From: a virus
Taxonomy: Duplodnaviria; Heunggongvirae; Uroviricota; Caudoviricetes
Reading direction: 5' to 3' (one strand)
Virus record (IMG/VR): IMGVR_UViG_2734482780_000007
Length of the DNA stretch: 26,669 nt
This document shows, piece after piece, positions 1,265 to 25,030 of this stretch (positions are counted from its first letter, which is position 1; each line of letters starts with the position of its first letter). The notes beneath the pieces were generated by a model. The model saw only the letters and a list, made by a program, of their open reading frames with translations. It was not told the origin of the DNA and ran no database searches. The position numbers and the translations under genes are program-made.

Positions 1265-4017
1265 TATGCAAGCCTCACAATATAGTTAAATGCGATGTTT
1301 TTGACGGTGTTTTCCGCGTTACCAGCAGCGTTAACGGTGATGGTATGTCCATGTGAACCAATCGCAACGGAGTGCGTATGAGCACCAATACCGACAGTAT
1401 GTGCGTGTGCACCTGCGCTTGCAGCAGTACCCGATACAGAGTGCGTATGAGCGCCTGCAGAAGAAGTGTTAACACTGTATTTAGAATAATCAGGTGATCC
1501 ACTTCCCGGAGCACCACTGGAACCACCTGAAACAAATGTCATCGAATGGGTATGTGCACCGGCTGAAGCAGCCGTACCGCTAACACTATGGGTATGCGCA
1601 CCAGTGTTATTCGTGGATTTAGTGCCGTAATCAAACGACGATGTGGTTTTCGTCCCCAAATCCGTACTGGATACGCTGGCGCTGTGGGTGTGTGATTTAA
1701 TGCCGTCCTGTTCCTGAGACAATACGGCTCGATCACTGGCGGGCTTGCCCTTAATCGTCCAGCCACGCATATCAGGGATCACGCCTGACGGATAAGCGGC
1801 TGCAAGTTTCGGGTAAGCAGATTTGTCAAAAGTCTGCCCCTGCATCAGGGCATAACCAGACGGAACGGTATCTGATGGCCACGGGATTGGTGCACCGACT
1901 GGATAAAACTCTGCAGGAGGATGAGCCGAGGTGTAAAGCTGCGCCCACGGCGACCAGTTTGCGTCGGTCGTATCCCGTCGTGAACGAATAAATGCCGGAG
2001 CATGAGCACCGCTTGTACCACTCCAGCCGATGAGTAACTCACCTTCGCCAACGGCTGTCATCCCTTTCAGGTGAATGATATTTCCATACGCTGTTGGATA
2101 TCCGTTGTTATACACCTCGTATAACTCAAGACCTGTTGCCCCCTGCGTATTGTCTGTCAGCGCGGTTACCCGACCTTTTGAAGACAGATTAACTGATGAT
2201 ACTGCTGTTCCACCTGACGGTAACGCCCCGATCTCTGATGCCGTTGGCTTATTTCTGGAGTTATAGTCCCTTCGCCAGCCAGGTGAATAATCTGTTCCGT
2301 GATTAATATAGGTAAACTGGGCGTTAGTTGTTCCACCACCAGTGGAGGTGGTCGGTGTGGTAATGCGGATCGTCATCGCTGACTTTATCCCCATTACTTC
2401 AATGACAGCTCCGGCGAGATGAATATTACCGCAGCCAGTATCAGTAATGATTTTATTATTGCCATAAGACCAGGAACCCTTGCACATCCAGTATGGATGG
2501 TTAAATGCTCCCTGAGAATCCAGCCACTCGATAAACTGTGCAGTCGTCCAGTTTCCTGTTGTTGTGCTTACTGACCCACCGAAGGCACGGCAGGCACCAA
2601 TATTTTTCGTAAAGGTGTCTTTGCCAGGGATATCCGCACCGTTCTGATCTTTCTGCAGACGTTTCTCAGCATTGTCATTGGCTGCTTTTACTGCCTTTGG
2701 CGTTGCCGCCAGCGTTTCAGACGTGCTGTTGGTCGCGCTGCTTAGCTGGATTATCCCTTTCTGTGCTGTCGTTGCATCCTGTGCGGTGTATTTCCCGTTA
2801 GCCAGGTCATACGCGGCCTTAACGGCTTTTGGCGTTGCCGCCAGTGACTCGGAAGTGCTGTTGGTCGCACTGCTGAGCTGTACTATCCCCTTTTTCGTCG
2901 TGCTCGCATCCTCAAGCGCCACGGCGGATGCAATATCCTCTGCCCGTTTTGCCGCTGTCTCAGCGCGCGTTGCTGCAGATTCCGCCGTACTTTTGCTCTG
3001 AGCTGCTGCCGTCGCACTGCCAGCTGCCTCTGTCGCCTTCGTGGATGCCGTCGTGGCGCTACCCTTCGCTGCTGACGCCTGTCTGGTCGCCTCATCTTTT
3101 GAAGCAGACGCAGATGATGCCGATGACGACGCCGAACTGGCTGACGATGCGGCAGCCGTTTTTGAGGATTCTGCGCTGGTTTCCGACGCTTTCGCGTTCG
3201 TTTCGGATGTCTTCGCTGCGGAAGCAGACCTCGCTGCTGCGCTGGCTTGTTCAGTGGCTTCGCCAGCCTTCGTTGTGGCTGTTGAAGCAGACGATGCGGC
3301 GCTTTCTGCCGATTTTCCGGCGGCGGTGGCACTGGCTGAGGCCTGCCCGGCACTTGTTGACGCTGCACTGGCAGACGACGCAGCCGCTGTTTTTGAGCCT
3401 GCCGCAGCCGAGGCGCTCTGTCCCGCTGCCGTTTCAGAAGACCTGGCGTTCGTCTCTGACGTTTTTGCCGCCTTCGCGGAATTTCCTGCCGCTGTTGCCG
3501 AGGAAGCTGCGCTACTGGCGCTCGAGGATGCGTTCGTTTCTGATGATTTTGCCGCCTCTTTTGAAGCCGCCGCATCCCGGGCTGAGGTGGCAGCTTCTGA
3601 CGCTTTCGTAGTCGCGGTGGATGCAGAAGTGGCTGCTGATTGTTGTGACGCTGCAGCATTCGTTTCTGACGTTTTCGCGGCACTGGCACTGGTAGCTGCC
3701 GCGCTTTTTGAGGACTCTGCAGCGGCAGCACTTTTTGATGCTTCAGTGGCCTTTGTTGATGCCGTTCCTGCGCTGGAAGTCGCTGACTGAGCCGACGACG
3801 CGGCCTGTCCGGCTGACGTGCTGGCTGCGCGTGCTGAGCCTGCAGCATCAGTCGCATGGGTTTCGGCATACCATCTTATAACGGCGGCAGAGTCATAAAG
3901 CACCTCATTACCCTTGCCACCGCCTCGCAGAACGGGCATTCCCTGTTCCTGCCAGTTCTGAATGGTACGGATACTCGCACCGAAAATGTCAGCCAGCTGC
4001 TTTTTGTTGACTTCCAT
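1264..4017 (-). CDS. stfQ: Side tail fibre protein fused in frame to the N-terminal ~52 aa of terminase small subunit Nu1 (917 aa chimeric ORF)
   Basis: First ~52 residues match lambda Nu1 N-terminus ([46 protein letters not shown]...), then continues as lambda Stf-like sequence ([18 protein letters not shown]...), the [31 protein letters not shown] repeat and a His-rich C-terminus. Confidence 0.9.
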
Positions 4018-4194
4018 TGTTCATTCCACGGCCAAAAACAGAGAAAGGAAACGACAGAGGCCCAAAAGCTCGTTTTCAGCACCTGTCGTTTCCTTTCTTT
4101 TCAGTGGGTATTTTAAATAAAAACATTAAGTTACGACGAAGAAGAACGGAAATGCCTTAAACCGGAAAATTTTCATAAATAGCGAAAACCCGCG

Positions 4195-4206
4195 AGGTCG
4201 CCGCCC
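4195..4206. other. cosN cohesive-end site (12-nt GGGCGGCGACCT on the minus strand) with flanking cosB-like sequence
   Basis: Minus-strand sequence GTTACGGGGCGGCGACCTCGCGGGTTTTCGCTATTTATGAAAATTTTCCGGTTTAAGG matches the junction of the lambda genome ends, immediately upstream of the Nu1 start. Confidence 0.8.
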
Positions 4207-4405
4207 CGTAACCTGTCGGATCGCCGGAAAGGACCCGCAAAATGATAATAATTATCATCTGCATGTCACAACGTGCATCTACGCCATCAAACCACGTCAA
4301 ATAATCAATTATGACGCAGATATCGTATTAATTGATCTGCATCAACTTAACGTAAAAACAACTTCAGACAATACAAATCAGCGACACTGAATACGGGACA
4401 ACCTC

Positions 4406-4639
4406 ATGTCAACGAAGAACAGAACCCGCAGAACAACAACCTGCAACATCCGCTTTCCTAACCAAATGATTGAACAAATTAACATCGCTCTTGAGCAAAA
4501 AGGGTCCGGGAATTTCTCAGCCTGGGTCATTGAAGCCTGCCGCCGGAGACTGTGCTCAGAAAAAAGAGTTTCTTCTGAAGCAAACAAAGAAAAGAGTGAC
4601 ATTACTGAATTGCTCAGAAAACAGGTCAGACCAGATTGA
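4406..4639 (+). CDS. ynfO: Small hypothetical protein, 77 aa (YnfO-like)
   Basis: ORF in moron block between cos and the lysis genes; weak SD. Confidence 0.6.
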   Translation: MSTKNRTRRTTTCNIRFPNQMIEQINIALEQKGSGNFSAWVIEACRRRLCSEKRVSSEANKEKSDITELLRKQVRPD

Positions 4640-4696
4640 AGCAATTTAGATAATCGTGCAGACTACGCCCCCTCATATCACATGGAAGGTTTATCT

Positions 4697-5107
4697 ATGG
4701 ATCAGGTAGTCATTTTTAAACAAATATTTGATAAAGTTCGAAACGATTTAAACTATCAATGGTTTTATTCTGAGCTAAAACGTCACAATGTCTCACATTA
4801 CATTTACTATTTAGCCACAGAGAATGTTCATATTGTATTAAAAAATGATAATACAGTGTTATTAAAGGGCCTAAAAAACATTGTGTCTGTCAAATTTTCA
4901 AAGGATAGGCATCTTATAGAAACGACCTCTAATAAGCTGAAATCCAGAGAGCTCACATTTCAGGAATACAGAAGAAACCTTGCTAAAGCAGGAGTTTTTC
5001 GGTGGGTTACAAATATCCACGAACAAAAAAGATATTACTATACCTTTGATAATTCATTACTATTTACTGAAAGCATCCAGAAAACTACACAGATCTTACC
5101 ACGCTAA
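4697..5107 (+). CDS. ydfO: DUF1398-family protein, 136 aa (YdfO-like)
   Basis: ORF with GGAAGG SD 7 nt upstream of the ATG at 4697; a hairpin follows the stop. Confidence 0.8.
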
Positions 5108-5258
5108 ACCATAACGTCCGGCTTCTCTCACTCCTGAGCCGGACTGCATTGGTTTAATAAAAACCATCAACAATTGTGATTTAGATATTCGGAACCATTC
5201 AAATATAACAAAACCCCGTAAAAACGAGGTTTATGGATAAATTTTATTATTGAATACA

Positions 5259-5435
5259 TCAGATTAAATTAATCTTGACATCATAGCTTTCAAGACCCGT
5301 CATTTTTTCCCGTGCGGTAAACTGAATACTGGTAACTTCTTTCCCGGTCTTTTTCTTAAGTTCAATAATTTTTTTTGTTATATATTCAGAAATATCTGCT
5401 TCTGCTTTTGTTTTTAAGTTTTCAATATTCATCAT
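5259..5435 (-). CDS. gnsB: GnsA/GnsB-family small protein, 58 aa
   Basis: Translation MMNIENLKTKAEADISEYITKKIIELKKKTGKEVTSIQFTAREKMTGLESYDVKINLI; hairpin plus T-run terminator just downstream on the minus strand (about 5216-5237). Confidence 0.85.
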   Translation of the reverse strand: MMNIENLKTKAEADISEYITKKIIELKKKTGKEVTSIQFTAREKMTGLESYDVKINLI

Positions 5436-5603
5436 TTCCTCTTTTAGTCTGTTATGACTTTCCAGTTACACAGTAAGTCGATTATATGGTGCAAACGTGT
5501 AAAAGATAAGATGAAACATCGCAATAATCAACATACGATAGTCTAAATTTTACACAAACAGACAAAGAAAATTTTCCTGAATTATCAATACAATAGCATC
5601 AAA

Positions 5604-5834
5604 TCAACTCAAGAGCCTTATTGCTGCTTCCAGAATTTCTTCTGAAGTAACATGTCGATCCGCGGCTACATAAATGACTTTATGATCTCCGGTCAGAGAT
5701 GGAAACCCTGCGGCCATTACAGTAAGGTGTGTTTTTTCGCCATTTGGATATTCACGCATGATGGTGTTAACTCCAGTCATCGCTGGCACTACCACTGCAG
5801 GTTCAGAGTTAAAAAAAACTATGATTTTTTTCAT
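5604..5834 (-). CDS. YmcE/YnfN-like small protein, 76 aa from the first ATG (the ORF track uses an upstream TTG)
   Basis: ORF adjacent to gnsB and cspI; no clear SD; begins right after a minus-strand terminator. Confidence 0.45.
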   Translation of the reverse strand: MKKIIVFFNSEPAVVVPAMTGVNTIMREYPNGEKTHLTVMAAGFPSLTGDHKVIYVAADRHVTSEEILEAAIRLLS

Positions 5835-14825: not shown

Positions 14826-15815
14826 TCAATCTTTTTTATCGGGATCAGGCTTCTTTTTAGGTAACTTCGGGGGCTTAACTTGCTGATGACTTTGCGTTCG
14901 GCGCGTAAGCCAGGGATGGTCAGCTTTAGGTTTAACATAGTATTTTGAGCGTAAATCAATACGGGCATTATCCACTCGTTCATGGACACTCTTTTCATCA
15001 TCCAGTGGTATAGGCTCCGGGCCATCAACATACTTTTCCCAGCCCAGCGCTTTCCCGTCATACAGAACGTTAATTTCACCGTCAAAGTTCTCGCATACAG
15101 TAACAACCGAATGCCTAAGTCGATATCCCCGGCCCTCACTGCGTACCTGAAACGCACTGCTTGTGTACTGGAAAGTGAGATTTTTAGACAGAACGCGCTT
15201 CGCCTGTAGGCTGAAGATATAACCCAGTTCCTCTTCAGAATGGTGCACATCAAGATGAGCATTATCAGTAGTACGAGGCGACGTAGCGAACCGGTTGTTA
15301 TAGGCTTCAATAAAGGTCGGCAACCATGCATTTGCTGTTTCAATATCACTGATATTCTGAAGCCGCATTTCTTTGACCAGCCTGTCCTGTAGTGTCTGAT
15401 TGGCGCGCTCTACCCGCCCTTTTGCCTGCGGGCTGTTGGCATGGATTGGCTCGATGCCCAGTGTCTTTATCGCACGAGTGAACTGGGTCAGCTCACCTTC
15501 CCGCTCTGGGTTATTTACCCTGAATATACTGTGTCTATCAGAGTAGAGAGCGAGCGGTACGCCATGATCATTAAGGTAACCCCGGAGGGTTTCCATGTAA
15601 GCCCGGGTTGTTTCAGCAGGCACAAAACGCAACGCCATCAACGCACTGGTGGCATCATCAATGAAAACGATCAGTGTACATCTGGGGCCTCGATTTTCAA
15701 ACCAGTCATGAGGTGAGCCATCAATCTGGATCAGTTCACCGTAAGATGGTCGTCGCATGCGACGTTGATATATACGGGCAATTTTACGACGGCGTTCACG
15801 CCATACCCCCCTCTT
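14826..15815 (-). CDS. Transposase catalytic part (rve/DDE integrase core), frame open from 15815; first ATG at 15758
   Basis: IQIDGSPHDWFE ... IVFIDDATSALMA ... HANSPQAKGRVERANQTLQDRL; joins the N-terminal ORF frame if one G of the G6 run (15806-15811) is removed. Confidence 0.75.
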   Translation of the reverse strand, partial: KRGVWRERRRKIARIYQRRMRRPSYGELIQIDGSPHDWFENRGPRCTLIVFIDDATSALMALRFVPAETTRAYMETLRGYLNDHGVPLALYSDRHSIFRVNNPEREGELTQFTRAIKTLGIEPIHANSPQAKGRVERANQTLQDRLVKEMRLQNISDIETANAWLPTFIEAYNNRFATSPRTTDNAHLDVHHSEEELGYIFSLQAKRVLSKNLTFQYTSSAFQVRSEGRGYRLRHSVVTVCENFDGEINVLYDGKALGWEKYVDGPEPIPLDDEKSVHERVDNARIDLRSKYYVKPKADHPWLTRRTQSHQQVKPPKLPKKKPDPDKKD

Positions 15816-16167
15816 CTATCATCCACTTTCTGAGAGTTTCAACGGATAAAGATAAACCGTGTATCTCGCGCAATTTTTCGCACGCAAACGTAGGTCCAAA
15901 ATCAGCGTAACGGCCTTTGAGGAGTGAAATTACTGTTGCTCTGAATTCAGTAGAAAAGGAATTATTAGGACGCTTTCCACGTCGGTGGGAAACCAGACCA
16001 GAAGGCCCTTCATTTCTATACCGTTGCACCAGACGTTTAACCTGCCGAATAGAAATGCCAATGCGTGCCGCAGCTTGTTCCTGAGTAATATGTCGATTAA
16101 TTGACTCCTGAATAATCTGAAGTCGGTGGAGTTCCTTATGACTCATCGTAACAGTTTCTTTGGTCAT
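15796..16167 (-). CDS. Transposase N-terminal part (HTH domain), 123 aa, ends at a stop just after a G6 run
   Basis: MTKETVTMSHKELHRLQIIQESINRHITQEQAAARIGISIRQVKRLVQRY... Confidence 0.75.
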   Translation of the reverse strand: MTKETVTMSHKELHRLQIIQESINRHITQEQAAARIGISIRQVKRLVQRYRNEGPSGLVSHRRGKRPNNSFSTEFRATVISLLKGRYADFGPTFACEKLREIHGLSLSVETLRKWMIEEGGMA

Positions 16168-17223: not shown

Positions 17224-17833
17224 TCATCGCCCCACTCATCACAATATGCTTCGACCGGAGTTTTTCCCGCTTCATAGTCATCACGCTAGGATTCGACATC
17301 AGCAGCACTTCCACCGCGTAACTCACCATAGTCCATTAATAGTTCATCCCGCTCTTCAAAACTGATGTTATATTTAGCTGAACAAAAATCAGCCACTTTG
17401 TTCTTCCTCATCGTCTTTTATTTCGTGGTATGAGTAATTGCAGTAGTTAAAGAAAATTTCTTATGCTCCGTCATGAATTTCATCAGGTGTTGCGTCATCG
17501 TCCACTTCGAATACATCCTCAAAATCTCCACCAGCTATTCCCGTTTCAATAATAATTTTGAACTTTCGCATTTCACTACCGCCCTTTCGGGCGGCCTCCT
17601 GATGTTCTGAGGGTGCAGAAATCCATCCGGTTAAGGATTAAGTTTTATTTACAGAACTGAATTTAATTATTCAGATATACGTATCTGTAACCTTACGAAT
17701 CTACTCACTGGATGCCTCTTTCATAAAAATAATCCAGTGGGTTTTATCGTTTTTTCCCTGTTCGTTGACAGATAACAGGCTTTCTATCTGTCAGTGCCAG
17801 AATCTGGCTTACCGGTATTTGCGTTTCATTCCA

Positions 17834-18190
17834 TTAAAAAATCAGAACGCCGTGCGGCCTCAACACCCGAAAAGCTTCTTTAAATCTCTGTCGCAAATCA
17901 TCACGCCAGGCATCTTTATTCAGCCGTCCATATTTCTTTCCCATCCAGGCGTTATCACCAACACGCTCAAGATGCGGAGGGTCTAATACAACCATCGAAA
18001 AAGATGCGTCTGCAAATGATAATGCACGAAAATCTGCGATAATGTCAGGGCTGATAATCAAGCGTCTCCCATTGCGTAATGTGTATCCTTCTTTTCTGAT
18101 ATCGCTGAATATCGCCCGTTTGTCAGACTTATCGAACCAGAACATGCGGCTGCCACAGCACATATCAAGAATGGTTGCCGGTGCACTCAC
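17834..18190 (-). pseudogene. C-terminally truncated SAM-dependent DNA amino-methyltransferase, 118 aa remnant
   Basis: Motif I ILDMCCGS and motif IV VVLDPPH present, ORF stops soon after; start ATG overlaps the upstream ORF stop (ATGA). Confidence 0.55.
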
Positions 18191-18561
18191 TGCGCCACGT
18201 CCTGAAAATTACCCTGATAGAAAGCCAGTATGCGCTGCATAACTTCGCTCTTCCGGCACTCGCGACAGATTATGTTTAGGCGACTGTCGTAGCGACGTAT
18301 TTCTCCGTCAGGTGATGACCAGATAAGGTCCGGATCAACCACAGCAGGTTTCTTCACCTTTGCCCTCGAGAGTTTTTTGCGGGCGTTTTGCCAGTCCTTA
18401 CGCGCCTGTTCAGAGGGGAATAACCCGTAGCCGGAGTTGTATACATCGCCACTGACTACCAGCTCTCTGGCAAGAACGCTCATCAGATATCTAGTCGCAC
18501 CTGTTTTAGCTTCCAGTTGCCGTAACGTCTCACGGCCGCTCTGGCGCACGAGTTCCACCAC
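18187..18561 (-). CDS. Hypothetical protein, up to 124 aa, start uncertain (GTG at 18561 or ATG at 18483)
   Basis: Open frame translationally coupled to the methyltransferase remnant; no good SD/ATG at the 5' end. Confidence 0.35.
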   Translation of the reverse strand: MVELVRQSGRETLRQLEAKTGATRYLMSVLARELVVSGDVYNSGYGLFPSEQARKDWQNARKKLSRAKVKKPAVVDPDLIWSSPDGEIRRYDSRLNIICRECRKSEVMQRILAFYQGNFQDVAQ

Positions 18562-18649
18562 CTGTCATTTAATTTTTTCCCGCTCTTCTTGTGTAAAAAC
18601 TTTTGCCACCAGTCCCCCTTAAAATTACCTCATGACCTGAAATCAACAC

Positions 18650-19615
18650 TTATCCTCTGAAACCAGGCGGAATTTCTGTATCCGGTTCAGAAATATGATT
18701 AACACAACGCTGTACAGGTGAACGTCCCAGGCGGATGACCAGTTCGTCCCATTTTTCGCGGAGCTTTGACGGGCTCATGATGTTTTTTACCCAGAATGGA
18801 TCTCGCTGAACCCGACCAAACATTTCGCAAATTTGTCTGTGGCTTCTGCCATCCAGCATCCGCATTGTGCGCACGTCATTGGCCCAGGCAGTCCAGTTAG
18901 GCTCTTTTGGTCGCATGATCTCGCCATCATCACTGGCTGCCTGTTCGTAGAGACCCACGATCCGCCCCCAGATCCACTGCGCACACGCCAAATCCTCCCT
19001 GCTACCCCACTGGCGTTTTTTCGCACTAAACACAACCGCGTCGGAGTTCCGGGTTAAAGAATCCTGTTCAGTCGTCTGCGGGTCCGGTTGCGAAGCTTCC
19101 GGACGAAAAGTGTTTTTATTCTCTGTAGTAATCTCTGTTGTATTCTCTGTAAGATCATCAGGCCATTTTGACCCGATGACATTGGGTCGTTTTGAACCAA
19201 TGGAGCGTTTCATTTTGACCTCTTCCATCGTGTCATTTTGACCTGATGGAGCGGCGCATTTTGAACCGATGGATTCGCTCAATTTGCCACCATCTAAAAG
19301 CTCGCTCCCATAGTTGATCGTGTAGAAATTGGTCATATCGCGCTTTGATTTATTGAGCTTTTCACAACGCAAAAGCCCCAGCGTTTTCAGACTTGCAAAC
19401 GCGCGCTTTAACGTTGACTCTGACCAGAATGGGAACTGTTCCAGCCATTGTTCCGTTGTGTTATAAATCCAGCGAACACCATCACATTCCATGCCGGAGT
19501 TGGTATCTCTCAACCAGTAGTGCAGTTGTTGCAAAACAATGGCTTCGTTTAAGCCAATTTTCATTGCCAGCTGCGTGTTTATAACCAGTGGGCGTTCAGC
19601 AAAAAGAAGGCTCAT
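18650..19615 (-). CDS. Phage replication initiator (lambda O-like replisome organiser), 321 aa from the ATG at 19615
   Basis: Position after the cro-like/cII-position genes; contains an in-gene iteron array encoding SIGSK-type peptide repeats, as in lambda O. Confidence 0.75.
   Translation of the reverse strand: MSLLFAERPLVINTQLAMKIGLNEAIVLQQLHYWLRDTNSGMECDGVRWIYNTTEQWLEQFPFWSESTLKRAFASLKTLGLLRCEKLNKSKRDMTNFYTINYGSELLDGGKLSESIGSKCAAPSGQNDTMEEVKMKRSIGSKRPNVIGSKWPDDLTENTTEITTENKNTFRPEASQPDPQTTEQDSLTRNSDAVVFSAKKRQWGSREDLACAQWIWGRIVGLYEQAASDDGEIMRPKEPNWTAWANDVRTMRMLDGRSHRQICEMFGRVQRDPFWVKNIMSPSKLREKWDELVIRLGRSPVQRCVNHISEPDTEIPPGFRG
19164..19297. repeat. Putative prophage origin: six direct iterons of 23-24 bp (CATTTTGACC-n-GATGG consensus), preceded by three 12-bp tandem repeats (TCTCTGT core, 19117-19152)
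   Basis: CATTTTGACC / CGTTTTGAAC / CATTTTGACC / CATTTTGACC / CATTTTGAAC / CAATTTGCCA starting at 19164, 19188, 19211, 19234, 19257, 19280. Confidence 0.75.
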
Positions 19616-20117
19616 AATTCCATCCAGCTTTTTGTTGGTATTGCTGTCGATACGCAAGCTTGAAAGCAATTGCTTTTTCTATAAGTTCGTCAGTTTCACG
19701 ATCCACTACGGCAGGATCAGCAAAAAGCAGTCCGGACTCCACCACATCGCCATATTCTTTGTTTAACCCGGCGATCATGCACGTGATGCTTTTTCCGTCA
19801 GTAATTTCACGATACAACCTGAAATCACTAATCCGGATAGCCTCCATAATCGCAGGCACTAGCGCCGTGAACTTTTCACGCTTATCCCTGGTGTCGATAG
19901 CCTTCCAGCGTTCGAATATCTTCACTCGATTAACACCAAGCGCTCGCTGATCAACCGCGCCACCTTCATCTGTGACACGCTGAACATCGATGTTCGGGCG
20001 CTCTTTCAAAGCCCAGAATGCTTCAGTGATTAATATCGTCGCCTGCTCCTGTGTCATTCCTGGTCGACATATCCAGGCATCCAGAGCCTCACGAGCCTGT
20101 TCAGGAGTGATTTTCAT
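19596..20117 (-). CDS. Hypothetical protein in the cII position, 173 aa
   Basis: ORF between the cro-like dicC and the O-like gene, overlapping both by about 20 nt. Confidence 0.6.
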   Translation of the reverse strand: MKITPEQAREALDAWICRPGMTQEQATILITEAFWALKERPNIDVQRVTDEGGAVDQRALGVNRVKIFERWKAIDTRDKREKFTALVPAIMEAIRISDFRLYREITDGKSITCMIAGLNKEYGDVVESGLLFADPAVVDRETDELIEKAIAFKLAYRQQYQQKAGWNYEPSFC

Positions 20118-20331
20118 TGTTCAACCACCCCGCCCGCTTCGTCTTACGATATTCATCATAAACTTTGGGATCATACTGAAGCTCCCCGCCAGATGCCTCC
20201 TGTAGACGCATCGCGCGACCTTCGGGAACTAAATCCCCTTTCCAGCTATAAAGCGAAGCCAAACGAATACCTGCTGCTTGTGCAAGTTTTGTTTTTGAAC
20301 CGAAATACAAAAGAGCGTCAGTTTTAAGCAT
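20101..20331 (-). CDS. dicC: Cro-like HTH regulator DicC, 76 aa
   Basis: MLKTDALLYFGSKTKLAQAAGIRLASLYSWKGDLVPEGRAMRLQEASGGELQYDPKVYDEYRKTKRAGWLNNENHS; divergent from dicA. Confidence 0.9.
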   Translation of the reverse strand: MLKTDALLYFGSKTKLAQAAGIRLASLYSWKGDLVPEGRAMRLQEASGGELQYDPKVYDEYRKTKRAGWLNNENHS

Positions 20332-20346
20332 TTAAAACACCTTTAT

Positions 20347-20364
20347 TGTTAGTCATAACTAACA
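20347..20364. promoter_or_regulatory. Operator-like palindrome TGTTAGT-CATA-ACTAACA in the dicA/dicC divergent promoter region (second palindrome TGTTAACA at 20372-20379)
   Basis: Perfect 7-bp inverted arms sharing the TGTTA half-site with the downstream 8-bp palindrome. Confidence 0.5.
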
Positions 20365-20414
20365 AGATAGATGTTAACAAAAACATAGTCAATACGATTT
20401 AGCATTAGCTAACT

Positions 20415-20822
20415 ATGGAAACAAAAAATTTAACTATCGGCGAACGCATCAGGTATCGTCGGAAAAACCTCAAACACACCCAAAGGTCTCTTGCTAAAGC
20501 CCTGAAAATCTCCCATGTGTCTGTATCACAATGGGAACGGGGTGATAGTGAACCTACAGGGAAGAACCTTTTTGCCCTCAGCAAAGTATTGCAATGCTCA
20601 CCAACATGGATTCTATTTGGCGATGAAGACAAGCAACCAACACCACCTGTTGAGAAGCCAGTTGCCTTATCCCCCAAAGAACTAGAGCTCCTTGAGCTGT
20701 TTAATGCACTGCCAGAATCAGAACAGGATACCCAGCTCGCCGAAATGCGAGCTCGAGTAAAAAACTTCAATAAACTCTTTGAAGAATTACTAAAAGCCCG
20801 TCAGCGGACAAATAAAAGATAA
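20415..20822 (+). CDS. dicA: cI-like repressor DicA (HTH_XRE), 135 aa
   Basis: METKNLTIGERIRYRRKNLKHTQRSLAKALKISHVSVSQWERGDSEPTGKNLFALSKVLQCSPTWILFGDED... Confidence 0.95.
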   Translation: METKNLTIGERIRYRRKNLKHTQRSLAKALKISHVSVSQWERGDSEPTGKNLFALSKVLQCSPTWILFGDEDKQPTPPVEKPVALSPKELELLELFNALPESEQDTQLAEMRARVKNFNKLFEELLKARQRTNKR

Positions 20823-20988
20823 CATCATCAATGAGTTATCTTTTACCACATCAATTATGTTAGCTATAGCATACAAAATCACTTGACCGATATGTTAGTC
20901 ATGGCTAATCTTGTTTGCATCAACACACCGCACGGTGTTCTCAGCAAACAGTTCCGCTACCCCAGCGTTAAGGGGAAATGAGGTCCGC

Positions 20989-21144
20989 ATGGATACTATC
21001 GATCTTGGCAACAACGAATCTCTGGTGTACGGCGTGTTTCCAAACCAGGACGGTACGTTCACCGCGATGACGTATACCAAAAGCAAAACGTTTAAAACCG
21101 AAAATGGTGCCCGTCGCTGGCTGGAAAGAAACTCAGGTGAGTGA
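20989..21144 (+). CDS. ydfA: Small protein YdfA, 51 aa
   Basis: MDTIDLGNNESLVYGVFPNQDGTFTAMTYTKSKTFKTENGARRWLERNSGE; GAGG SD. Confidence 0.85.
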   Translation: MDTIDLGNNESLVYGVFPNQDGTFTAMTYTKSKTFKTENGARRWLERNSGE

Positions 21145-22466: not shown

Positions 22467-22558
22467 AACAGTTCCGTAATAAATATCCGGTTTCATTCTT
22501 ATATGCCAGCAATGGCAGGGATTTGTTCATCCTTAAATCTGTCATGAGGTTAAAACAA

Positions 22559-25030
22559 ATGAGTAAAGTCTTTATTTGCGCCGCTATTCCTGACGAACTG
22601 GCAACAAGGGAAGAAGGCGCTGTGGCTGTAGCCACAGCCATTGAAGCTGGCGACGAACGCCGTGCTCGAGCAAAATTTCACTGGCAATTCCTGGAACATT
22701 ATCCGGCTGCTCAGGACTGCGCTTATAAATTTATTGTCTGCGAGGATAAACCTGGCATACCCCGCCCTGCCCTCGATTCATGGGATGCTGAATATATGCA
22801 GGAAAACCGCTGGGATGAGGAGTCTGCTTCTTTTGTCCCGGTTGAGACTGAATCCGATCCGATGAACGTCACTTTTGACAAGCTGGCCCCTGAAGTACAG
22901 AACGCTGTCATGGTTAAGTTCGACACATGTGAAAACATCACCGTTGATATGGTTATTAGCGCACAGGAATTGTTGCAGGAAGACATGGCAACATTCGACG
23001 GACATATCGTTGAAGCGTTGATGAAAATGCCAGAAGTTAACGCCATGTATCCGGAGCTTAAGTTGCACGCCATTGGGTGGGTTAAGCATAAATGTATTCC
23101 TGGTGCTAAATGGCCCGAAATTCAGGCAGAGATGCGCATCTGGAAAAAACGTCGCGAAGGTGAACGCAAGGAAACCGGAAAATACACGTCTGTTGTTGAT
23201 CTCGCCCGCGCCAGAGCCAATCAACAGTACACTGAAAATTCAACAGGAAAAATCAGCCCGGTCATTGCTGCCATTCATCGCGAATACAAGCAGACATGGA
23301 AAACACTGGATGACGAACTGGCCTACGCTCTCTGGCCTGGTGATGTGGATGCCGGAAACATTGACGGCAGCATCCATCGCCGGGCAAAAAATGAAGTTAT
23401 CGACAACGACCGCGAAGACTGGAAGCGTATCTCGGCATCAATGCGCAAACAGCCTGATGCCCTTCGCTACGACCGCCAAACTATTTTTGGCCTTGTCCGT
23501 GAGCGTCCGATCGACATTCACAAAGATCCCGTAGCACTGAACAAATATATCTGCGAATACCTGACGACAAAGGGCGTGTTTGAGAATGAAGAAACAGACC
23601 TGGGCACTGTTGATGTTCTCCAGTCATCAGAAACACAAACTGATGCAGTGGAAACTGAGGTATCTGATATCCCAAAAAATGAAACCGCGCCGGAAGCTGA
23701 ACCATCTGTAGAGCGTGAGGGGCCGTTCTATTTCCTCTTCGCAGATAAGGACGGAGAAAAATACGGTCGCGCAAACAAACTTTCTGGTCTGGATAAGGCA
23801 CTGGCTGCTGGCGCCACTGAAATCACAAAAGAAGAATATTTTGCCCGAAAAAATGGCACATACACGGGCTTACCGCAAAATGTAGATACCGCTGAAGATT
23901 CAGAACAACCAGGGCCGATAAAAGTTACCGCTGACGAAGTAAACAAAATTATGCAGGCAGCCAATATCATCCAGCCTGACGCCGATAAGTTGCTTGCTGC
24001 ATCACGTGGTGAATTTGTTGAAGGGATTAGTGACCCGAATGATCCGAAATGGGTTAAGGGGATCCAGACCCGCGATTCTGTGAACCAGAACCAGCATGAA
24101 TCGGAACGGAACTACCAAAAAGCGGAACAAAACAGCCCAAATGCGTTACAAAACGAGCCAGAAACGAAACAGCCTGAATCAGTGGCGCAACAGGAAGTGG
24201 AAAAAGTCTGCACCGCCTGCGGTCAGACCGGCGGCGGCAACTGCCCTGATTGTGGCGCGGTAATGGGCGACGCAACATACCAGGAAACATTCGATGAAGA
24301 GTATCAGGTTGAAGTTCAGGAAGATGATCCGGAGGAAATGGAAGGCGCTGAACATCCACACAAGGAGAACACTGGCGGCAATCAGCATCACGATAGCGAT
24401 AATGAAACTGGCGAGACGGCAGATCACTCAATTAAGGTGAACGGTCATCAAGAAATCACATCCACCAGCAGGACGTGTGACCATCTAATGATCGACCTTG
24501 AAACCATGGGAAAAAATCCTGATGCCCCGATCATCTCAATAGGTGCAATATTTTTCGATCCGCAAACCGGAGATATGGGACCGGAATTTAGTAAGACTAT
24601 CGATCTGGAAACTGCTGGCGGAGTCATTGATCGGGACACCATTAAATGGTGGCTTAAGCAATCACGCGAAGCGCAATCTGCCATTATGACCGATGAAATC
24701 CCGTTAGATGATGCACTGTTACAATTGCGGGAATTTATCGACGAAAACTCCGGTGAATTTTTTGTTCAGGTCTGGGGAAATGGAGCCAACTTCGACAACA
24801 CGATTTTGCGCCGTTCATACGAACGGCAGGGGATCCCCTGCCCGTGGCGTTACTACAACGATCGCGATGTACGCACAATCGTTGAGCTGGGGAAAGCCAT
24901 AGACTTCGATGCCAGAACGGCTATTCCATTCGAAGGTGAGCGCCATAATGCACTTGATGACGCCCGTTACCAGGCAAAATACGTTTCAGTTATCTGGCAA
25001 AAACTGATCCCGAGTCAGGCTGATTCTTAA
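22559..25030 (+). CDS. ydfE: Full-length YdfE-like protein, 823 aa: N-terminal domain, acidic linker, C4 zinc ribbon, C-terminal DEDDh (DnaQ-like) 3'-5' exonuclease domain
   Basis: GAGG SD before MSKVFICAAIPDELATREEG...; CTAC-x7-CPDC at about 24207-24258; exonuclease motifs MIDLETMG, WGNGANFD, HNALDDA in the last ~180 aa. Confidence 0.85.
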   Translation: MSKVFICAAIPDELATREEGAVAVATAIEAGDERRARAKFHWQFLEHYPAAQDCAYKFIVCEDKPGIPRPALDSWDAEYMQENRWDEESASFVPVETESDPMNVTFDKLAPEVQNAVMVKFDTCENITVDMVISAQELLQEDMATFDGHIVEALMKMPEVNAMYPELKLHAIGWVKHKCIPGAKWPEIQAEMRIWKKRREGERKETGKYTSVVDLARARANQQYTENSTGKISPVIAAIHREYKQTWKTLDDELAYALWPGDVDAGNIDGSIHRRAKNEVIDNDREDWKRISASMRKQPDALRYDRQTIFGLVRERPIDIHKDPVALNKYICEYLTTKGVFENEETDLGTVDVLQSSETQTDAVETEVSDIPKNETAPEAEPSVEREGPFYFLFADKDGEKYGRANKLSGLDKALAAGATEITKEEYFARKNGTYTGLPQNVDTAEDSEQPGPIKVTADEVNKIMQAANIIQPDADKLLAASRGEFVEGISDPNDPKWVKGIQTRDSVNQNQHESERNYQKAEQNSPNALQNEPETKQPESVAQQEVEKVCTACGQTGGGNCPDCGAVMGDATYQETFDEEYQVEVQEDDPEEMEGAEHPHKENTGGNQHHDSDNETGETADHSIKVNGHQEITSTSRTCDHLMIDLETMGKNPDAPIISIGAIFFDPQTGDMGPEFSKTIDLETAGGVIDRDTIKWWLKQSREAQSAIMTDEIPLDDALLQLREFIDENSGEFFVQVWGNGANFDNTILRRSYERQGIPCPWRYYNDRDVRTIVELGKAIDFDARTAIPFEGERHNALDDARYQAKYVSVIWQKLIPSQADS

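What the first reader, a model, noticed from the sequence alone, without database searches (positions are those of the whole stretch)
19106..19297. Iteron-type replication origin inside the O-like gene, with no recognisable helicase-loader partner
Six direct repeats of 23-24 bp plus three 12-bp repeats lie inside the replication initiator ORF, the same arrangement as lambda ori within O. The initiator and origin look intact, but what follows is a startless 124-codon frame and a truncated methyltransferase rather than a P- or DnaC-like loader, so replication may depend on host functions or be defective. The iteron sequence differs from lambda, implying separate replication specificity.
Basis: partly seen in the sequence, partly recalled or inferred. 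Interest (0 to 1): 0.5.

Follow-up and report, generated by a model that had tools for sequence, protein, structure and literature searches.

The report
Prophage replication origin without own loader
This is the replication origin of a Qin-type lambda-like prophage of E. coli, lying inside its own initiator gene; the missing helicase-loader gene is a common natural variant also seen in complete phage genomes, which most likely borrows the host's DnaC, so the finding is real but largely ordinary.

Summary
The repeats are real and non-random: five strong iterons and one degenerate one (23-24 bp phasing, core GGTCAAAATG with dyad arms), then three tandem 12-mers in a 72% A+T stretch. All lie inside a 321-codon initiator gene (18650-19615, minus strand) of a Qin-type cryptic prophage. 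Order and position match lambda ori. Across 51 distinct homologous genes, third-codon-position diversity falls from 0.33-0.38 in the flanks to 0.11 (iterons) and 0.006 (12-mers), so selection acts on the DNA itself. Relatives with another N-terminal domain carry other repeats. The protein is a mosaic: a winged-helix-like N-domain matching no Pfam model, a disordered origin-encoded linker, a lambda-O-like C-domain (34% identity), and a 20-residue tail nearly identical to host DnaT's C-terminus. The 'startless frame' is a full-length DUF977/Ren-like gene with a GTG start and a private TGA at codon 15; it is not a loader. Near-identical initiators occur both with a DnaC-like loader (50% identical to host DnaC) and without one. 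The loader-less form is present in complete phage genomes (HannyBb, mEp460). So the origin reading holds, host dependence is likely, and 'defective because loader-less' is not supported. It is a new member of a known kind. The shared DnaT-like tail is the one lead worth following.

The parts
18650..19615 (-). Replication initiator gene (O-like), 321 codons plus stop, containing the origin
   Evidence: PHROG 391 'replication initiation O-like', E 6e-91. Annotated at these bounds in HannyBb, mEp460_ev081, PhiR42_1 and E. coli 2022CK-00450. C-domain 34% identical to lambda O. No Pfam match even at E<=5.
19272..19294 (-). Iteron 1, furthest from the A+T-rich segment; degenerate in this window (GATGGTGGCAAATTGAGCGAATC on the gene strand)
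   Evidence: weak PWM score of 10.4. mEp460_4F5 has a better core here, GGTCAAAGTG.
19249..19271 (-). Iteron 2: CATCGGTTCAAAATGCGCCGCTC
19226..19248 (-). Iteron 3: CATCAGGTCAAAATGACACGATG (16/23 self-complementary)
19203..19225 (-). Iteron 4: GAAGAGGTCAAAATGAAACGCTC
19180..19202 (-). Iteron 5: CATTGGTTCAAAACGACCCAATG (16/23 self-complementary)
19156..19178 (-). Iteron 6, next to the A+T-rich segment: CATCGGGTCAAAATGGCCTGATG; the best conserved copy
   Evidence: Identical to mEp460_4F5 except for two positions in the 3' arm (GGCCTGATG against GGCCCAATG), although the genes are only about 78% identical overall. 17 of 23 positions are invariant over 51 genes.
19106..19155 (-). A+T-rich segment (72% A+T) containing three tandem 12-mers at 19117-19152 (gene strand TTACAGAGAATA CAACAGAGATTA CTACAGAGAATA); the presumed DNA-unwinding element
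   Evidence: 33 of 36 positions are invariant over 51 distinct genes, and third-position diversity is 0.006.
18653..18712 (-). Codons for the 20-residue C-terminal tail QRCVNHISEPDTEIPPGFRG, which resembles the tail of host DnaT
   Evidence: 14/20 identical to the C-terminus of E. coli DnaT. Matches PDB 2ru8, 6aep and 9zbt_D. Predicted disordered. The same tail sits on at least 5 initiator families.
18187..18609 (-). DUF977 / LygF / 'Ren-like' gene (140 codons), inactivated by TGA at codon 15 (18565-18567); not a loader
   Evidence: Pfam PF06163, E 2e-28, full length. PHROG 142. In-frame stop. Relatives have GGG, TGG or GAG at that codon, 0 of 33 have TGA.
17834..18190 (-). Truncated DNA methyltransferase remnant (118 codons)
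   Evidence: PHROG 954, covering profile positions 52-165 of 229. Annotated as a pseudogene in a 99.9% identical genome.
19596..20117 (-). cII-like / YdaT-family gene directly upstream; overlaps the initiator start by 20 nt
   Evidence: PHROG 163, E 3e-40. Pfam YdaT_toxin.
20101..20331 (-). Cro-like DicC gene, first gene of the operon that includes the initiator
   Evidence: NCBIfam DicC, E 3e-46.
20364..20392 (-). pR-like promoter candidate (TTGACT-17-TATCTT) upstream of dicC
   Evidence: Consensus scan only; the number of hits in the region was not above the shuffled expectation.
20415..20822 (+). DicA repressor gene (immunity repressor)
   Evidence: NCBIfam DicA, E 3e-70.

Best explanation
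The segment is the origin of replication of a Qin-type lambdoid prophage and works like lambda ori. When the DicA repressor is lifted, the rightward operon (dicC, cII/YdaT-like gene, initiator, DUF977) is transcribed through the origin. The initiator's winged-helix-like N-terminal domain binds the five or six partly palindromic 23-bp iterons that lie within its own gene, forming an O-some-like complex. Strain from that complex opens the adjacent A+T-rich stretch with its three 12-mers. Host DnaB is then loaded there. This version of the module has no loader gene, so loading is done by host DnaC. The lambda-O-like C-terminal domain and/or the DnaT-like C-terminal tail of the initiator acts as the recruiting surface. 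Shown here: the anatomy, DNA-level selection on the repeats, co-variation of repeats with the N-domain, the protein's domain mosaic, and the natural occurrence of the module with and without a DnaC-type loader. Inferred: iteron binding, unwinding at the 12-mers, use of host DnaC, and the role of the tail. The surrounding prophage is cryptic, so at most in-situ or post-excision replication could result, not virions.
For: 1. Repeat statistics and layout; same order as the annotated lambda ori.
2. Conservation. mEp460_4F5, whose gene is about 78% identical, keeps all six iterons. The block from the spacer before the last iteron through the three 12-mers matches the window at every position except two in that iteron's 3' arm.
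3. Codon-position test over 51 distinct genes: third-position diversity is 0.327 (N-domain) and 0.381 (C-domain), but 0.108 in the iterons, where pos1, pos2 and pos3 are equal, and 0.006 in the 12-mers.
4. Co-variation. SfIV-type initiators, with an HTH_36 N-domain, have a different 15-bp array. Relatives L071-L088, whose N-domain differs, lack the window motifs.
5. Protein identity: PHROG 391; C-domain homologous to lambda O, E 5e-26; N-domain 44-46% identical to staphylococcal phage initiators. The model shows helix/beta-hairpin repeats, and its top fold matches are iteron-binding RepA_N domains 4pql, 5kbj and 4pt7, at weak E-values. The origin-encoded residues 110-190 are predicted disordered.
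6. Loader question. There is no DnaC-like or P-like coding capacity in the window, HannyBb or mEp460_4F5. [quoted passage not shown]
7. Nine loci with 93-96% identical initiators and the same iterons have a DnaC-like gene 7 nt after the stop codon. It is 50% identical to host DnaC over its full length.
8. Loader-bearing and loader-less forms differ by one indel of about 745 nt, bounded by the initiator stop codon and the last ~8 nt of the loader ORF.
9. The tail is shared with DnaT and with K-12 Rac YdaU. It is followed by DnaC-like (35 loci) or DUF977 (34 loci) genes and never by lambda P in 80 tail-bearing loci.
Against: No experiment was done: binding, unwinding and replication are all inferred. 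The N-domain fold assignment rests on a modest model (mean pLDDT 55) and weak Foldseek E-values (0.01-0.05). The window's prophage is decayed (nonsense codon in DUF977, truncated methyltransferase, an IS nearby, no structural genes), so the origin may never fire in this host. I could not confirm from records that HannyBb forms plaques. The tail also occurs next to phage DnaC-like genes, so it is not a substitute for a loader. Its co-occurrence with dnaC-type genes could reflect linkage within a recombining cassette rather than function. No partner is assigned to the DnaT tail in the literature I could read. One recent paper favours the DnaT N-domain as the DnaB/DnaC recruiter (PMC13377028).
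Confidence: 0.72

Rival explanations
1. The module is a crippled remnant. The DnaC-like loader gene was deleted from an initiator-loader-DUF977 module, and the origin can no longer fire, so the repeats are a fossil.
For: Sister loci with near-identical initiators do carry the loader, and the difference is a single indel. The surrounding prophage is cryptic and decaying.
Against: The loader-less junction is the commoner form (35 against 19 of 80 loci). It recurs with three different initiator families with the same 41-nt spacer. It is present in complete phage genomes with full structural gene sets. The initiator ORF here is intact and 100% identical to other copies. The host supplies a 50% identical DnaC.
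Confidence: 0.1
2. The repeats are only a by-product of a repetitive, disordered protein linker (SIGSK..., TENTTEITTENK) and have no role as DNA.
For: The repeats do encode repeated peptides, and the region is predicted disordered.
Against: A disordered linker should evolve fast and show the usual excess of third-position change. Here third positions are 3-60 times less diverse than in the folded domains, and codon periodicity is lost. The 23-nt period is not a multiple of 3, so successive copies are read in different frames. The units have dyad symmetry. The layout copies lambda ori.
Confidence: 0.04
3. One of the small winged-helix proteins that always follow the initiator (DUF977 here, a PerC-domain protein in mEp460 and SfIV, DUF1627 elsewhere) is an unrecognised, non-homologous helicase loader or co-initiator. 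In that case the nonsense codon in DUF977 would make this copy defective.
For: A small HTH protein always occupies the slot after the initiator or the loader. Non-homologous loader replacement by phage genes is documented in Vibrionaceae (PMC11087808).
Against: DUF977 also follows the DnaC-like gene in loader-bearing modules (L037, L072, L078, and K-12 Rac ydaW), so it is an addition, not a replacement. It sits where ren sits in lambda, and PHROGs groups it with Ren-like exclusion proteins. The three proteins are unrelated to one another.
Confidence: 0.08
4. The iterons act mainly as regulatory or incompatibility sites (initiator titration, autoregulation) and not as the place where replication starts.
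For: Iterons in plasmids also do this. There is no direct mapping of a start site here.
Against: They are coupled to an extremely conserved A+T-rich 12-mer block in the lambda order, and no other candidate origin was seen in the module. The two roles are also not exclusive.
Confidence: 0.05

Closest known systems
Phage lambda O / ori-lambda, and the six-iteron origins of Stx phages 933W and P27
   Same: The origin lies in the middle of the initiator gene, which follows cII in the rightward operon. An array of partly palindromic iterons is followed by an A+T-rich tract (PMC7466680). The C-terminal domain is homologous (34% identity, E 5e-26). The iteron centre TCAAAA(C/T)G is shared. As in Stx phages there are six copies, and the copy furthest from the A+T tract is the weakest.
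   Different: The N-terminal domain does not match Phage_rep_O. Iterons are 23 bp with different arms (CATCGGG...CCCGATG against ATCCCTC...GAGGGAT). The A+T tract contains three tandem 12-mers. There is no P gene. The protein ends in a DnaT-like tail that lambda O lacks.
E. coli K-12 Rac prophage ydaU-ydaV-ydaW (initiator, DnaC-like, DUF977)
   Same: The same operon logic (repressor / Cro-like / YdaT / initiator...). YdaU ends in ...PDSAIPPGFRG. DUF977 follows.
   Different: YdaU is a DUF1376 protein unrelated in its N-domain. Rac keeps the DnaC-like YdaV 7 nt after the initiator, whereas this window has none. The repeats in ydaU are different and weaker.
Host primosomal protein DnaT (the name RAST gives these phage proteins, 'Primosomal protein I')
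   Same: The last 20 residues are 70% identical, up to the very C-terminus IPPGFRG. The host gene is likewise immediately followed by dnaC.
   Different: There is no similarity outside the tail, and no PF17948 DnaT domain. DnaT acts at abandoned forks through PriA/PriB, not at a sequence-specific origin.
DopC of Brezellec et al. 2017 (O-like N-terminus with a DnaT C-terminal motif)
   Same: A published precedent for an O-like protein carrying a DnaT-type C-terminus (PMC5509034).
   Different: DopC is a domesticated chromosomal gene paired with a P-like partner (DopE). It lacks detectable iterons and lacks the lambda-O C-domain. This initiator has iterons, keeps the lambda-O C-domain, and has no P-like partner.
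RepA_N plasmid initiators of staphylococci and DnaD-like phage initiators
   Same: Top fold matches for the N-domain are 4pql, 5kbj and 4pt7. It is 44-46% identical over about 125 residues to staphylococcal phage initiators. PHROG 'DnaD-like' families also hit it.
   Different: Fold E-values are weak and model confidence is modest. The C-terminal half is of the lambda-O type, not the RepA type.

Membership tests
Lambda-type origin-within-initiator module | Initiator gene follows the cII-like gene in the rightward early operon under an immunity repressor | tested here: met
   Order DicA / DicC / YdaT-cII-like / initiator. The same order is annotated in four related records.
Lambda-type origin-within-initiator module | Array of at least 4 direct iterons with internal dyad symmetry inside the initiator ORF, between the N- and C-domains | tested here: met
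   Five strong copies and one degenerate copy, in codons 108-154. The segment is a predicted disordered linker.
Lambda-type origin-within-initiator module | A+T-rich tract directly after the iterons in the direction of transcription | tested here: met
   72% A+T at 19106-19155; same order as lambda.
Lambda-type origin-within-initiator module | Repeats conserved as DNA in homologous genes and co-varying with the DNA-binding domain | tested here: met
Lambda-type origin-within-initiator module | N-terminal domain of the Phage_rep_O family (PF04492) | tested here: not met
   No Pfam hit at E<=5, whereas lambda O scores 5.7e-36 in the same run.
Lambda-type origin-within-initiator module | C-terminal domain homologous to that of lambda O | tested here: met
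   Residues 147-294 against lambda O 135-270: 34% identity, E 5e-26.
Lambda-type origin-within-initiator module | Adjacent P-type helicase loader | tested here: not met
   No similarity to lambda P in the window (tblastn). The next gene is DUF977.
Lambda-type origin-within-initiator module | Initiator binds the iterons, and the segment supports autonomous replication | not testable with these tools
   Needs footprinting and a replicon assay.
Initiator plus DnaC-like loader module (Rac YdaU-YdaV type) | DnaC-type AAA+ gene starting a few nt after the initiator stop codon | tested here: not met
   Absent from the window. Present in 19 of 80 related loci, 9 of which have this initiator type.
Initiator plus DnaC-like loader module (Rac YdaU-YdaV type) | Initiator ends in the IPxGFRG tail | tested here: met
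DnaT (primosomal protein I) | DnaT DNA-binding three-helix domain (PF17948) | tested here: not met
   No hit, whereas E. coli DnaT scores 3.7e-21 in the same run. BLASTP similarity is limited to the tail.
DnaT (primosomal protein I) | [quoted passage not shown] | tested here: met
   14/20 identical. Matches PDB 2ru8, 6aep and 9zbt_D. The tail is described as flexible in PMC5778457.
RepA_N / DnaD-like winged-helix initiator N-domain | Winged-helix fold superposable on RepA_N domains | tested here: inconclusive
   Top Foldseek hits are 4pql, 5kbj and 4pt7 with probability 1.0 but E 0.01-0.05 and TM about 0.5, on a model with N-domain pLDDT of 60-82.

The most novel reading that the evidence does not exclude
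The C-terminal IPxGFRG tail is a portable docking peptide for the DnaB-DnaC helicase/loader complex (or for DnaC itself). On this reading it is shared by host DnaT, Rac YdaU and at least five unrelated families of phage initiators. That would explain how loader-less lambdoid phages recruit the host helicase. It would also point to the surface by which DnaT hands DnaB/DnaC to restart forks, a step the literature calls unknown. And it would imply that the host dnaT-dnaC operon descends from a phage initiator(tail)-dnaC cassette.
Probability: 0.3. Interest if true: 0.65.

Novelty: new member of a known kind. Interest (0 to 1): 0.33.

Why it matters
In practice, RefSeq names this initiator 'hypothetical protein' in almost every E. 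coli genome, and it matches no Pfam model. Yet it and its origin are present in about 9% of complete E. coli genomes (485 of 5,426). The family can now be annotated as an initiator with an internal origin.

Biologically, a cryptic prophage that keeps an intact initiator and origin under a repressor could over-replicate the neighbouring chromosome when derepressed.

Mechanistically, the same initiator and origin occur naturally with and without a DnaC paralogue. That gives a clean system for asking what a phage-encoded DnaC adds.

The tail shared with DnaT gives a concrete, testable candidate for the unresolved question of how DnaT and these initiators engage DnaB/DnaC.

Tried and rejected
1. 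I first thought the DnaT-like tail replaces a phage loader (tail present means no loader). The IMG/VR census rejected this: 19 of 80 related loci, and 35 of 80 tail-bearing loci, have a DnaC-like gene right after a tail-bearing initiator.
2. I looked for wider homology between the initiator and DnaT. BLASTP and Pfam show none beyond the tail.
3. I compared the 12-mers with the oriC 13-mer consensus. The best match is only 8 of 11 specified positions, so I make no claim.
4. DnaA boxes: none with one mismatch or fewer in 17500-21000.
5. The promoter scan gave no more hits than shuffled sequence. The pR-like site is only a positional candidate.
6. Literature searches for a function of the DnaT tail, and for the term 'initiator-solo', returned nothing usable. 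My recollection that Weigel and Seitz (2006) describe initiator-only modules is from memory and unverified.
7. Fold search of the whole model gave no match at E<=0.001. I did not pursue the C-domain fold.
8. Alignment of the 17-nt filler in the initiator-DUF977 spacer found no convincing source, so the direction of the loader indel is undetermined.

Full report
**Where the window comes from.** The 2.6-kb segment around the finding is 99.9% identical to several E. coli chromosomes. At least 80% of it is present in 485 of 5,426 complete genomes. In strain 2022CK-00450 it lies in the Qin cryptic prophage, between ydfJ/ydfK and rspA. The local order is DicA, DicC, a YdaT-family gene, 'phage replication protein O', a DUF977 gene and a methyltransferase pseudogene. 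Family scans of the window's own ORFs agree:
- DicA at 20415-20822 (+)
- DicC at 20101-20331 (-)
- a cII/YdaT-like gene at 19596-20117 (-)
- an initiator matching PHROG 391 'replication initiation O-like' (E 6e-91)

The initiator is annotated as 321 codons (19615 to 18650, minus strand) in four related records.

**The observation.**
- On the gene strand there are six 23-nt units at 23-24-nt phasing. Five have the core G(G/T)TCAAAA(C/T)G. Three have clear dyad arms (CATCGGG...CCCGATG, 16/23 self-complementary). The copy furthest from the A+T-rich tract is degenerate.
- They are followed by three tandem 12-mers inside a 50-nt stretch of 72% A+T.
- The core 10-mer occurs five times in the whole window, always in this array.
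- Lag-23 self-identity (0.586) is the window maximum, about seven standard deviations above the mean. The 12-mer block is the lag-12 maximum.

**Is it an origin?** The layout matches the annotated lambda ori: iterons in the middle of O, followed by an A+T-rich tract. The centre of the iteron, TCAAAA(C/T)G, is even shared, while the arms differ.
- mEp460_4F5, whose gene is about 78% identical in DNA and 70% in protein, keeps six iterons. From the spacer before the last iteron through the three 12-mers, it differs from the window at only two positions, both in that iteron's 3' arm.
- I compared 51 distinct genes of this type (70-100% identical). Third-codon-position diversity is 0.327 in the N-domain and 0.381 in the C-domain. 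It is 0.108 in the iterons, where all three codon positions are equally constrained, and 0.006 in the 12-mers. That signature means the DNA, not the peptide, is under selection. The 23-nt period also cannot be a coding repeat in one frame.
- The repeats co-vary with the DNA-binding domain. SfIV-type initiators (HTH_36 N-domain, same C-domain) have a different 15-bp array. Relatives whose N-domain differs lack the window motifs.

In Stx phages, six-iteron origins are known, and the copies furthest from the A+T tract are weakly bound (PMC7466680). That parallels the degenerate distal copy here.

**The initiator protein.** It matches no Pfam model even at E<=5, while lambda O, YdaU, SfIV O and DnaT all hit their families in the same run. 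This explains the RefSeq name 'hypothetical protein'. It is a mosaic of four parts.
- Residues 1-130 are 44-46% identical to staphylococcal phage initiators.
- Residues 110-190, encoded by the origin, are predicted disordered.
- Residues 147-294 are 34% identical to lambda O residues 135-270 (E 5e-26).
- The last 20 residues are 70% identical to the extreme C-terminus of host DnaT.

The AlphaFold model is of modest quality (mean pLDDT 55; N-domain 60-82). Its N-domain shows helix/beta-hairpin repeats. Its best fold matches are the iteron-binding N-domains of RepA_N plasmid initiators, at weak E-values. I take this as suggestive only.

**The missing loader.**
- The '124-codon startless frame' is a full-length DUF977 / LygF / 'Ren-like' gene (Pfam E 2e-28 over the whole profile). 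It has a GTG start at 18609 and a TGA at codon 15. Relatives have GGG, TGG or GAG at that codon, so the nonsense codon is private. The gene sits where ren sits after P in lambda and is not a loader.
- tblastn with E. coli DnaC, a phage DnaC-like protein and lambda P finds nothing in the window.
- Among 80 related IMG/VR loci, all of whose initiators end in IPxGFRG, the first downstream gene is DUF977 in 35, a PerC-domain protein in 19, and a 246-248-aa DnaC-like AAA+ protein in 19. Nine of those 19 have this same initiator (93-96% identical) and the same iterons.
- That loader is 50% identical to host DnaC over its full length.
- The two forms differ by one indel of about 745 nt. Its ends are the initiator stop codon and the last ~8 nt of the loader ORF, with 17 nt of unrelated filler between.
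- K-12's own Rac prophage shows the loader-bearing form: YdaU (tail), YdaV 7 nt later, then YdaW.
- The loader-less form is present in complete phage genomes. HannyBb has a 99% identical initiator and DUF977 next. mEp460_4F5 has the same initiator type and origin. Neither has a helicase or loader gene anywhere.
- mEp460 was sequenced and curated in a study which states that lytic and lysogenic growth in E. coli MG1655 was confirmed for its 26 focus phages (PMC9836094).

So the absence of a loader is a normal allelic state, and host DnaC is the obvious provider. 'Defective' does not follow from it.

**The tail.** I scanned IMG/VR for ORFs ending IPPGFRG. The tail occurs on at least five initiator families: this one, an SfIV-N/lambda-O-C hybrid, the Tritos type, the YdaU/DUF1376 type, and phage DnaT homologues. 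The next gene is DnaC-like in 35 loci, DUF977 in 34, and lambda P in none. Every major family occurs in both states. Lambda-type O proteins that pair with P align only to residues 294-315 and lack the tail. In the host, dnaT is followed by dnaC after 2 nt.

The literature I could read describes the DnaT tail as a flexible 20-residue segment with no assigned partner. It states that how DnaT recruits DnaB/DnaC is unknown (PMC5778457; PMC13377028). An O-like protein with a DnaT C-terminal motif has been noted before (DopC; PMC5509034). That the tail is the docking element for DnaB-DnaC is therefore a reasonable hypothesis. It is untested, and linkage within a recombining cassette is a real alternative.

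**Verdict.** The finding is a genuine lambda-type origin inside an initiator gene. It belongs to a poorly annotated initiator family, in a loader-less but natural configuration that most likely uses host DnaC. It is a new member of a known kind. The description of the downstream frame needs correction, and the 'defective' alternative is not supported. The most interesting by-product is the DnaT-like tail shared across initiator families.

Noticed in passing
window 18187-18609 (-), stop codon at 18565-18567: The DUF977/LygF/Ren-like gene is inactivated by a single TGG-to-TGA change at codon 15. None of 33 comparable loci has it, and a 99.9% identical genome annotates the gene as intact.
   Followed up: yes
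window 14826-16167 (-): An insertion-sequence-like pair of ORFs: a 123-aa HTH_28/HTH_32 protein and a 310-aa integrase-core (rve_3) protein. It lies beyond the truncated methyltransferase and may account for the truncation of that part of the prophage.
   Followed up: no
window 19596-19615; proteins P0001, P0002, P0004; locus L047: The YdaT-like gene and the initiator overlap by 20 nt. Some genomes carry fused ORFs of 448-481 aa that are annotated 'toxin YdaT family protein' but contain the whole initiator.
   Followed up: no
L089 2479-3018 (dnaT) and 1739-2476 (dnaC); L212 2620-4230 (ydaU-ydaV); L037 about 4001-5719: The host dnaT-dnaC operon (tail-bearing protein, then DnaC after 2 nt) mirrors the phage initiator(tail)-DnaC-like arrangement (7 nt). 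Phage and host DnaC are 50% identical. This suggests common descent of the cassette.
   Followed up: partly
L006 2627-2790 (SfIV); L005 1035-1119 (lambda): Three initiator types with different N-domains (no Pfam match, HTH_36, Phage_rep_O) all have TCAAAA at the centre of their repeats. The reason is unexplained.
   Followed up: no
L008 3540-3575 (phage Tritos): An unrelated initiator gene (Phage_rep_org_N-like) also contains three tandem 12-mers (TCTTTATCTGTA on the + strand) resembling this window's 12-mers. It ends in the identical 19-residue tail.
   Followed up: partly
L139, L148, L155, L163 (IMG/VR): Phage-encoded proteins of 270-275 aa are 60-67% identical to host DnaT and carry the tail. 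They are followed by an unidentified ORF of 114-155 aa, not a DnaC-like gene.
   Followed up: no
window 22523-25030 (+): An 835-aa ORF is annotated in related records as exonuclease / 3'-5' exonuclease (RecE position), downstream of dicB/ydfD. It was not examined.
   Followed up: no
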